64,000 bases of DNA. Source: a virus (lineage: Duplodnaviria; Caudoviricetes). The notes below the pieces were generated by a model that ran no database searches, had not been told where the DNA came from, and was given only the letters and a program-made list of their open reading frames with translations. The translations under genes were made by a program, and so were the position numbers. The stretch lies in the IMG/VR virus record IMGVR_UViG_2895791493_000001, positions 35,726 to 99,725 of that record; one strand, written 5' to 3'. Position 1 is the stretch's first letter; every line of letters starts with the position of its first letter. Shown one piece after another: positions 51,312 through 51,443 of this stretch.

Positions 51312-51443
51312 TCAGCACTCGGCGCAGGGATCGTTTTTCACGATGGGCGGCTTGGGAGGAGGGGTCACGGTCCCTGCGGCGAGGACTCCGCTGGTCGCGG
51401 TCAGGAGGGTGAAGGCAGCGAGCATCAGAAGCGATTTCTTCAT
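51312..51443 (-). CDS. 43-aa secreted propeptide (candidate signalling peptide precursor)
   Basis: Not in ORF track. MKKSLLMLAAFTLLTATSGVLA-AGTVTPPPKPPIVKNDPCAEC; Sec signal; TAGGCT-N6-ATG. Confidence 0.85.
   Translation of the reverse strand: MKKSLLMLAAFTLLTATSGVLAAGTVTPPPKPPIVKNDPCAEC

What the first reader, a model, noticed from the sequence alone, without database searches (positions are those of the whole stretch)
51312..51443. Signal propeptide ends in CxxC (NDPCAEC): possible disulfide-cyclised or redox/metal-sensitive signal
Seen: the likely cleavage at V-L-A|A leaves AGTVTPPPKPPIVKNDPCAEC, a Pro-rich spacer plus terminal C-A-E-C. There is no lipobox. Established: mature AimP/Phr/PapR peptides are short linear peptides, usually from the C-terminal part of the precursor. 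Inference: two terminal cysteines could form a ring after export, making activity depend on oxidation state, which would be relevant in a radiation/oxidative-stress-adapted host.
Basis: partly seen in the sequence, partly recalled or inferred. Interest (0 to 1): 0.75.

Follow-up and report, generated by a model that had tools for sequence, protein, structure and literature searches.

The report
Cysteine-pair signal peptide of Deinococcus phages
A tiny secreted peptide gene in a Deinococcus phage ends in two cysteines that never change across about 36 related gene pairs, so this Cys-x-x-Cys tail is probably the working core of an undescribed phage peptide "communication" signal read by a neighbouring sensor protein.

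Summary
Window 51312-51443 (minus strand) encodes a 43-aa precursor with a classical Sec signal peptide, a Pro-rich linker and a C-terminal NDPCAEC.

It lies 47 nt after a ~491-aa helical-repeat protein. That protein's model matches peptide-binding RRNPP receptors best (phage Rap, NprR, AimR, PlcR; Z 12-16). The pair sits in the immunity region of a complete 99.7-kb Deinococcus phage.

- 36 of 38 homologous loci (receptor identity down to about 22%) carry a small signal-peptide ORF just downstream that ends in C-x-x-C.
- The consensus is [D/G]-P-C-x-[G/E]-C-stop. Signal peptide, linker length (6-61 aa) and the two x residues vary freely.
- Codons of the tail change only synonymously.
- A six-frame control found no such ORF anywhere else in the loci.
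- The gene has its own leaderless-type promoter (TAnnnT six nt before the start) in 23 of 27 loci.

Still untested: secretion, the mature form, receptor binding, and whether the cysteines form a disulfide ring, bind a metal or sense redox state.

No paper describes this. The scan had noted the Deinococcus cassette on other DNA (e1-5795317); that note lacked one of the search words Deinococcus/arbitrium/cysteine, so it probably does not mention the cysteine pair. I rate it a new variant of a known kind.

The parts
51312..51443 (-). Propeptide gene, 43 aa (the finding)
   Evidence: ORF list. Identical or similar ORFs occur at the same +47/48 nt position in relatives. Annotated only as 'hypothetical protein' in two Deinococcus genomes.
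51378..51443 (-). Sec-type signal peptide, residues 1-22, predicted cleavage VLA|A
   Evidence: Rule-based -3/-1 scan. All 35 distinct family peptides have an MKK-type n-region, a hydrophobic core and an AxA-type site. No SignalP run was possible.
51336..51377 (-). Pro-rich linker, residues 23-36, not conserved
   Evidence: Pro-region length (SP cleavage site to stop, including the CxxC tail) ranges from 6 to 61 aa across loci, and linker composition varies (L044).
51315..51335 (-). Conserved C-terminal heptapeptide N-D-P-C-A-E-C. The C-x-x-C occupies 51315-51326; the stop codon is 51312-51314.
   Evidence: Invariant across receptors only ~49% identical, with synonymous-only codon changes. Family consensus: P at -1 in 31/35, both Cys in 35/35, stop directly after the second Cys in 28/35.
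51450..51455 (-). -10-like hexamer TAGGCT, six nt before the ATG (leaderless-type promoter)
   Evidence: TAnnnT lies at exactly -12..-7 in 23 of 27 peptide genes, against 40 of 1,792 control ORFs. Leaderless mRNAs with a TAnnnT -10 dominate in Deinococcus (PMC4007540).
51482..51492 (.). Operator-like half-palindrome AAACTCTGTTG just upstream of the peptide promoter
   Evidence: One of five clustered matches to AAACTnnGTTT, at 50377, 50484, 51482, 52975 and 53005. There are 14 strand-hits in the window against 1.15 expected.
51491..52966 (-). Receptor-like helical-repeat protein, ~491 aa from the conserved Met (the longest ORF starts at 52999)
   Evidence: Alignments A1 and A2. AlphaFold model pLDDT 88.9. 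VIA-align top matches: MalT domain III Z 18.5, phage phi105 Rap with peptide 15.6, NprR-NprX 15.1, AimR 15.1, RapI 14.7, PlcR-PapR 12.6.
51053..51268 (-). Third cassette gene (60-71 aa), same strand, converging on the repressor gene
   Evidence: Homologues at the same position in 23 of 30 loci by iterative profile search.
51012..51041 (-). Terminator-like hairpin (13-bp stem plus T run) closing the cassette, inside the 3' end of the repressor gene
   Evidence: Pattern scan. It is a consensus match only.
50506..51075 (+). cI-like XRE repressor gene, convergent with the cassette
   Evidence: Pfam HTH_3 and PHROG transcriptional repressor hits. The same convergent HTH gene occurs in relatives.
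50123..50365 (-). cro-like small HTH gene, divergent from the repressor
   Evidence: Pfam HTH_31 and HTH_3.

Best explanation
The 43-aa ORF is the precursor of a secreted signalling peptide. Its cognate sensor is the cytoplasmic RRNPP-like helical-repeat protein encoded just upstream. Receptor, propeptide and a ~60-aa third gene form an arbitrium-like cassette in the lysis-lysogeny region of temperate Deinococcus phages and prophages. Proposed pathway (inferred): the gene is transcribed from its own leaderless promoter; the Sec system exports the product; signal peptidase I cuts after VLA; host exoproteases trim the variable linker. This would leave a peptide of about 6-7 residues ending in ...D-P-C-x-x-C with a free carboxylate. 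The Cys pair is the invariant recognition core, and the two x residues and upstream residues set specificity. Most likely the two thiols close into a small disulfide ring in the oxidising exterior, which would stiffen the peptide and protect it from carboxypeptidases. The peptide would be re-imported by an Opp-type permease and bind the concave face of the receptor, either as the ring or after reduction. That binding would switch the output of the third gene and the repressor circuit. Shown here: the gene is real and under selection, the synteny, the Cys invariance, the receptor fold class, the phage context and the promoter signature. Inferred: export, processing, disulfide formation, import, binding and the effect on lysogeny.
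For: Reality and selection of the ORF. CxxC in 36 of 38 loci, including distant homologues (L041-L044, L046, L047; receptor E-values 1e-18 to 1e-47). In L044 the predicted propeptide left after signal-peptide cleavage is only six residues ending in CxxC. Where residues follow the second Cys, the next one is Arg in 5 of 7 cases, which suggests trimming back to the Cys. Only the last 6-7 residues are conserved among close relatives, while 30 of 44 codons differ between the window and L039. Receptor fold: five of the nine best PDB matches are RRNPP receptors, three of them solved with a bound peptide. Peptide tails track receptor clades, with occasional switches; for example L035 has a different tail although its receptor is 68% identical to L004's. 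Phage context: complete virus record with terminal repeats, with cI-like and cro-like genes, integrase and ParB. Own promoter. Host genomes carrying the cassette have 7-8 Opp/Dpp-type binding-protein genes.
Against: There is no experimental data of any kind. The receptor has no detectable sequence relation to any RRNPP family and no HTH. Z scores of 12-18 are within the range that helical repeats can reach without homology (note). The fold of the C-terminal 120-aa domain is unresolved; its best match is SARP-type AfsR at Z 5.6, so the output mechanism is unknown. Disulfide formation is chemistry-based inference only. The phage encodes no thiol oxidoreductase. Deinococcus has a complex envelope, and uptake of a disulfide-bridged peptide has not been shown.
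Confidence: 0.6

Rival explanations
1. The peptide is a signal for the TPR receptor, but the cysteines act as free thiols that hold a metal ion (Zn, Cu or Fe). The conserved Asp at -2 and the terminal carboxylate may also coordinate it, so the receptor would read a metal-peptide complex or a metal-bridged peptide dimer.
For: C-P-x-C and C-x-G-C resemble zinc-knuckle motifs. Position -2 is Asp or Glu in 20 of 35 peptides, and the second x is Gly in 18 of 35.
Against: The receptor family has no invariant His or Cys to complete a shared site. No metal-handling gene is in the cassette. Thiols exposed outside an aerobic cell would oxidise readily.
Confidence: 0.12
2. The small protein is not a diffusible signal. 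It would be an exported or membrane-tethered CxxC mini-protein acting at the envelope, for example in redox or metal handling, superinfection exclusion, or passing an envelope signal inward. The TPR protein would be a separate regulator or partner.
For: CxxC is a classic redox or metal motif. No HTH was found in the TPR protein. Binding and import are untested.
Against: Linkers are hypervariable in length and of low complexity, with only the last ~6 residues conserved. All members have AxA-type cleavage sites. One member would leave only six residues after cleavage. Synteny with the receptor is strict, and tails track receptor clades.
Confidence: 0.15
3. The ORF is a RiPP-type precursor whose cysteines are enzymatically modified (thioether, thiolactone as in staphylococcal AIP, or C-terminal Cys decarboxylation) by host enzymes before or after export.
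For: Invariant Cys in a short C-terminal core is typical of modified peptides. Signal-peptide-bearing RiPP precursors are known (own knowledge: bufferins).
Against: No conserved enzyme gene accompanies the pair in any locus. The phage has no radical SAM or AgrB gene. A Sec signal peptide removes the substrate from cytoplasmic maturases.
Confidence: 0.06
4. The ORF is a chance reading frame in GC-rich DNA and is not translated.
For: It is short, unannotated in most assemblies, and GGAGG lies only one nt before the ATG, too close for a Shine-Dalgarno site.
Against: Conservation across 36 loci, synonymous-only change in the tail, the control scan, and a conserved leaderless promoter.
Confidence: 0.02

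Closest known systems
Arbitrium system (AimR-AimP-AimX) of SPbeta-like Bacillus phages
   Same: Both have a co-oriented receptor gene, a ~43-aa signal-peptide propeptide gene and a small third gene. Both sit in the lysis-lysogeny region of a temperate phage. The conserved part of the propeptide is its C-terminal ~6 residues. The receptor is an all-helical TPR-like protein (AimR Z 15.1 and 12.9).
   Different: There is no sequence similarity. No N-terminal HTH is present; instead there is an extra ~120-aa C-terminal domain of unresolved fold. The peptide core is P-C-x-x-C rather than the Gly/Ala-ended linear hexapeptide of AimP. The host is Deinococcus, not Bacillota. The third gene converges on a cI-like repressor.
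Rap-Phr cassettes, including phage-borne Rap (phi105, phi3T)
   Same: TPR receptor without an HTH, followed by a small exported propeptide gene whose C-terminal 5-6 residues are the signal. The phage phi105 Rap-peptide complex is the second-best structural match (Z 15.6).
   Different: Phr peptides are linear and Cys-free (own knowledge). Rap has an N-terminal three-helix bundle and acts on Spo0F/ComA-type partners. There is no sequence relation.
PlcR-PapR / NprR-NprX (RRNPP transcription factors)
   Same: Fold class of the peptide-binding repeats (Z 12.6-15.1) and an adjacent exported propeptide.
   Different: Those have an N-terminal XRE HTH and linear peptides, and are confined to Bacillota.
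MalT domain III (SUPR sensor domain)
   Same: Best single structural match (Z 18.5, 310 residues aligned). In MalT the sensor repeats also precede a C-terminal DNA-binding domain (own knowledge).
   Different: MalT senses maltotriose and ATP within a much larger STAND protein and has no peptide partner.
Staphylococcal agr autoinducing peptides
   Same: A quorum-sensing peptide whose activity depends on a Cys-mediated ring (own knowledge).
   Different: AIP has a thiolactone made by AgrB and is sensed by a membrane kinase. No AgrB is present here; here there are two Cys, a Sec signal peptide and a cytoplasmic TPR partner.

Membership tests
RRNPP-type peptide/receptor systems | Receptor built of TPR-like helical repeats with a peptide-binding groove | tested here: met
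   Model pLDDT 88.9. RRNPP receptors fill ranks 2-5, 8, 9 and 13 of 48,161 chains, Z 11.9-15.6 over ~190-313 residues. Caveat: helical repeats can reach such Z values without homology.
RRNPP-type peptide/receptor systems | Sequence membership in a known RRNPP receptor family | tested here: not met
   No Pfam, NCBIfam or PHROG family; only sub-threshold TPR hits. A profile search of PDB sequences finds no RRNPP protein.
RRNPP-type peptide/receptor systems | Adjacent small gene for an exported propeptide | tested here: met
   36 of 38 loci have one. It starts between 4 nt before and 111 nt after the receptor stop, most often at +47/48, on the same strand, with a Sec-type signal peptide.
RRNPP-type peptide/receptor systems | N-terminal HTH DNA-binding domain (absent in Rap) | tested here: not met
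   No HTH in any of 30 members. The model starts directly with repeats. The C-terminal domain matches SARP DNA-binding regions only weakly (Z 5.6).
RRNPP-type peptide/receptor systems | Short mature peptide released from the propeptide and re-imported by Opp | not testable with these tools
   Indirect only: conservation is limited to the last 6-7 residues, and hosts have 7-8 SBP_bac_5 genes.
RRNPP-type peptide/receptor systems | Direct peptide-receptor binding | not testable with these tools
   No complex prediction or assay is available here.
Arbitrium (AimR-AimP-AimX) | Gene order receptor-propeptide-small effector in a temperate phage's lysogeny region | tested here: met
Arbitrium (AimR-AimP-AimX) | Homology of the receptor to AimR | tested here: not met
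   No hit in 50,697 phage records by tblastn or in PDB sequences. Fold-level resemblance only.
Arbitrium (AimR-AimP-AimX) | Control of the lysis-lysogeny decision by peptide concentration | not testable with these tools
   Needs infection or induction assays.
   Both Cys present in 35 of 35 distinct peptides, always C-x-x-C. One further locus (L013) has C-x-x-x-C away from the end.
   Needs MS with and without reduction/alkylation, and binding assays. No phage thiol oxidoreductase was found.
agr-type or RiPP-type modified peptide | Dedicated maturation enzyme encoded with the precursor | tested here: not met
   No AgrB or radical SAM gene in the phage. No conserved enzyme gene in neighbouring positions.

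The most novel reading that the evidence does not exclude
The P-C-x-x-C tail is a redox switch. The secreted signal would exist as a disulfide ring outside the cell and as a dithiol inside, and only one form would fit the receptor. Deinococcus phages could then combine 'how many of us are there' with 'how oxidised is this host' (radiation, desiccation) in one molecule when choosing lysis or lysogeny. That would be a redox-gated phage communication system in a non-Bacillota host.
Probability: 0.2. Interest if true: 0.9.

Novelty: new variant of a known kind. Interest (0 to 1): 0.74.

Why it matters
Peptide communication between phages (arbitrium), and RRNPP signalling generally, is documented only in Bacillota and uses linear, Cys-free peptides. 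This study finds a sequence-unrelated but structurally similar receptor family, almost confined to Deinococcaceae. It has about 128 clusters at 50% identity and occurs in roughly one in six Deinococcaceae species genomes. Each receptor is paired with a secreted peptide whose only invariant feature is a terminal Cys-x-x-Cys.

If it is confirmed, three things follow:
- Phage peptide signalling would extend to another phylum.
- Signalling peptides would gain a new chemical class (disulfide, dithiol or metal-binding) with a simple, synthesisable 6-7-residue ligand.
- A long-standing idea would become directly testable: that temperate phages of stress-resistant hosts tie their lysogeny decision to oxidative state.

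The motif also gives a practical search handle for finding these mostly unannotated genes.

Tried and rejected
- **Shine-Dalgarno reading rejected.** GGAGG lies one nt before the ATG, which is too close. The same bases are the spacer after a conserved TAnnnT -10, so the gene reads as leaderless.
- **Lipoprotein rejected.** There is no Cys near the signal-peptide end.
- **Metal site shared with the receptor not supported.** The 30-member alignment has no invariant His or Cys.
- **Enzymatic maturation or phage-encoded redox helper.** Thioredoxin, DsbA, glutaredoxin, AgrB and radical SAM are all absent from the 99.7-kb phage.
- **Searches that gave nothing.**
  - Receptor against IMG/VR viral contigs, twice.
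  - Receptor against GenBank phages by tblastn.
  - The search for related loci on genome contigs.
  - Alignment A2 was too diverse for pattern scanning.
- **Structure and family look-ups.**
  - Foldseek against the PDB gave no significant match for the whole protein or the C-terminal domain.
  - ESM Atlas returned only generic TPR neighbours.
  - A PDB sequence profile search found no RRNPP protein.
  - The C-terminal domain fold search was inconclusive (best Z 5.6).
- **Literature.** No paper links Deinococcus with arbitrium or RRNPP, or RRNPP peptides with a Cys pair.
- **Not attempted.**
  - Receptor-peptide complex prediction: the folding tool takes single natural sequences only.
  - SignalP: not available.
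  - A genome-wide search for orphan CxxC peptides in host genomes: a short degenerate pattern would give about 3 chance hits per genome.

Full report
**1. What is at the coordinates**

The minus strand of window 51312-51443 holds a 43-codon ORF with an ATG start and a TGA stop.
- The product has an MKK start, a hydrophobic core and a V-L-A|A site that obeys the -3/-1 rule. A rule-based scan places cleavage after residue 22. SignalP was not available.
- There is no cysteine near that site, so it is not a lipoprotein.
- After the predicted cut come a Pro-rich linker of 14 residues and the tail N-D-P-C-A-E-C, followed directly by the stop.

**2. Setting**

The window is the last 64 kb of a 99,725-bp virus record with direct terminal repeats, rated complete. 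Around the ORF, running leftward on the minus strand, lie these genes:
- A ~491-aa protein (51491-52966; homologues align from the second Met).
- The peptide gene, 47 nt downstream of it.
- A 60-71-aa ORF (51053-51268).
- A convergent cI-like XRE repressor gene (50506-51075).
- A divergent cro-like HTH gene (50123-50365).
- A tRNA-like element, then a tyrosine integrase.
- To the right, an early operon with a DNA methylase-like gene and a ParB-like gene.

Five matches to AAACTnnGTTT cluster at 50377, 50484, 51482, 52975 and 53005. The pattern gives 14 strand-hits in the window against 1.15 expected. One of these sites lies just upstream of the peptide promoter. A terminator-like hairpin at 51012-51041 closes the cassette. 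So the ORF sits in the immunity region of a temperate phage.

**3. Is the ORF a gene?**

The large protein has 14 homologues of 45-93% identity in a 5.8-billion-protein set. All those with a name are from Deinococcus.
- DNA around ten of the 14 was fetched.
- A profile search of 125 Deinococcaceae species genomes found the family in 19.
- A search of 364 Deinococcota genomes added a few more distant members.
- Further remote members came from a 1.8-billion-protein profile search: 128 clusters in all, 86 below 1e-30.

A script listed every same-strand ORF just after each homologue.
- In 36 of 38 loci there is an ORF of 29-82 aa with a Sec-type signal peptide that ends in C-x-x-C.
- One exception, L013, has a signal-peptide ORF with C-x-x-x-C away from the end.
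- The other, L045, is a weak partial homologue with nothing downstream.

Among 35 distinct peptides:
- Both Cys are present in 35.
- Pro precedes the first Cys in 31.
- Asp or Glu is at -2 in 20.
- The second x is Gly in 18.
- The stop follows the second Cys directly in 28. Where residues follow, the next is Arg in 5 of 7.

The signal peptide, the pro-region length (6 to 61 residues) and the x-x pair (18 different combinations) vary freely.

Control for chance:
- Across 1,792 ORFs of 25-90 aa in all six frames of the loci and the whole window, 40 end in C..C and 37 are signal-peptide-like.
- All 23 with both features are the ORF right after the receptor gene. About 0.8 would be expected if the features were independent.

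Evidence for selection:
- In the NDPCAEC group the tail codons differ only synonymously.
- The window and L039 differ at 30 of 44 codons yet keep D-P-C-A-E-C.
- Their receptors are only ~50% identical.

Evidence for expression:
- A TAnnnT hexamer lies exactly six nt before the start codon in 23 of 27 peptide genes, against about 2% of control ORFs.
- This is the signature of the leaderless mRNAs that dominate Deinococcus transcriptomes (PMC4007540).
- It explains why GGAGG lies too close to the ATG to be a ribosome-binding site.
- Two remote members from other organisms use a normally spaced GGAGG instead.

The peptide is annotated, as 'hypothetical protein', in only two Deinococcus genomes. 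It is uncalled in several NCBI assemblies.

**4. The partner protein**

No Pfam, NCBIfam or PHROG family covers it. Only sub-threshold TPR hits appear in a minority of members, and no HTH.

An AlphaFold model from 15 sequences is confident (pLDDT 88.9, pTM 0.86). It shows about 20 helices over residues ~20-385 and a separate domain at 385-502.
- Foldseek found nothing significant.
- Exhaustive alignment to 48,161 PDB representatives ranked these matches:
  - MalT domain III first (Z 18.5).
  - Phage phi105 Rap with its peptide (15.6).
  - NprR-NprX (15.1).
  - SPbeta AimR (15.1).
  - RapI (14.7).
  - A second AimR (12.9).
  - PlcR-PapR (12.6).
  - ComR (11.9).
- Such Z values are not proof of homology for helical repeats. 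Still, the enrichment of peptide-binding quorum-sensing receptors at the top is notable.

The C-terminal domain, folded alone from 30 sequences (pLDDT 89.3), has only weak matches. The best three are the SARP regulators AfsR and EmbR, at Z 4.9-5.6. A DNA-binding role is possible, as in MalT, where sensor repeats precede the DNA-binding domain. It is not shown here.

The 30-member alignment has no invariant His or Cys. Its near-invariant residues include R147, Q149, R183, Y201, Y272, D304 and Q305. These are candidates for contacts with the invariant part of the peptide; this is an inference.

**5. Pairing**

- On a receptor tree, sister receptors carry similar tails. There are also switches: the L035 receptor is 68% identical to L004's, yet its tail differs, while the same tail persists across receptors only 49% identical.
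- The exact NDPCAEC-stop DNA motif occurs in only 2 of 125 genomes, both times next to a close receptor homologue.
- A third gene is homologous in 23 of 30 loci.
- The convergent cI-like HTH gene and the cro-like gene recur.
- In four relatives the receptor-peptide pair lies at a prophage end, abutting the host tmRNA gene.
- Hosts have 7-8 Opp/Dpp-type binding-protein genes.

**6. What the cysteines do**

The data show that they are indispensable, at fixed i,i+3 spacing, at the very C-terminus. Usually Pro precedes them and Gly sits before the second Cys.

No maturation or redox enzyme travels with the pair (and the gene tables). Spontaneous or host-catalysed chemistry is therefore the simplest reading.
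- A CxxC peptide in an aerobic exterior should form a 14-membered disulfide ring and be reduced again in the cytoplasm (established thiol chemistry).
- Which form binds the receptor is untested.
- Whether a metal is involved is untested.
- Whether oxidative stress changes the signal is untested.

**7. Comparison and novelty**

Functionally the cassette looks like arbitrium or Rap-Phr. It fails sequence membership in those families, lacks the N-terminal HTH, has an extra C-terminal domain, lives in Deinococcota and uses a Cys-pair peptide.

Literature searches found nothing on Deinococcus with arbitrium or RRNPP, or on Cys-pair RRNPP peptides.

Another agent of this scan had already described an arbitrium-like pair in Deinococcus phages on other DNA (e1-5795317). 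In both word searches that note lacked one of the search words (in one search: Deinococcus, arbitrium, cysteine), so it probably does not mention the cysteine pair. I re-checked the operators and the cassette.

**8. Verdict**

The best explanation is a secreted C-terminal P-C-x-x-C peptide acting as the ligand of an RRNPP-like phage sensor (confidence about 0.6). The redox-ring idea remains open (about 0.2 for true redox gating). It is a new variant of a known kind and of high interest, because the claim can be tested directly with a synthetic hexapeptide and one purified protein.

Noticed in passing
window 51012-51041 (minus strand): A strong terminator-like hairpin (13-bp stem plus T run) for the cassette strand lies inside the 3' coding end of the convergent cI-like gene. 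The two transcription units therefore overlap.
   Followed up: no
window 50377, 50484, 51482, 52975, 53005: Five clustered matches to AAACTnnGTTT in the immunity region (14 strand-hits in the window against 1.15 expected). One lies just upstream of the peptide promoter and two lie upstream of the receptor gene.
   Followed up: partly
L004 3760-4116; L005 6776-7131; L035 4702-5057; L040 2295-2652: In four relatives the receptor-peptide pair ends a prophage that abuts the host tmRNA (ssrA) gene. The third gene and the cI-like gene are missing on that side.
   Followed up: partly
L023 (G072:C7:1-2608), peptide at 2029-2154: The receptor homologue is broken into three frames with an in-frame TGA, yet the downstream signal-peptide/CxxC ORF is intact. 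This may be a decaying prophage or a 'signal-only' element.
   Followed up: no
G083:C8:3314-4759 and 97730-99175 (L017, L027): Two identical copies of the receptor-peptide locus lie ~94 kb apart on one contig. This could be a terminal repeat of an element of ~94 kb or a duplicated prophage.
   Followed up: no
L047 815-2310: A remote 436-aa homologue, apparently from a lower-GC organism (judged by eye from the sequence; GC was not computed), also has a 29-aa signal-peptide ORF ending in CxxC. Here a normally spaced GGAGG precedes it rather than a leaderless promoter, and it lies next to a DUF2283/DUF4258 pair. The family may therefore reach beyond Deinococcus.
   Followed up: partly
window 52967-52999: The longest ORF of the receptor gene starts 11 codons upstream of the Met at which 13 of the 14 homologues begin. 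The real start is probably at 52966.
   Followed up: partly
L037 and L038 (peptides at 4491-4616 and 2040-2168): Two peptides carry 7-10 extra residues after the CxxC, beginning R-T-P. Other extended tails also begin with Arg, which suggests a C-terminal trimming step after the second Cys.
   Followed up: no
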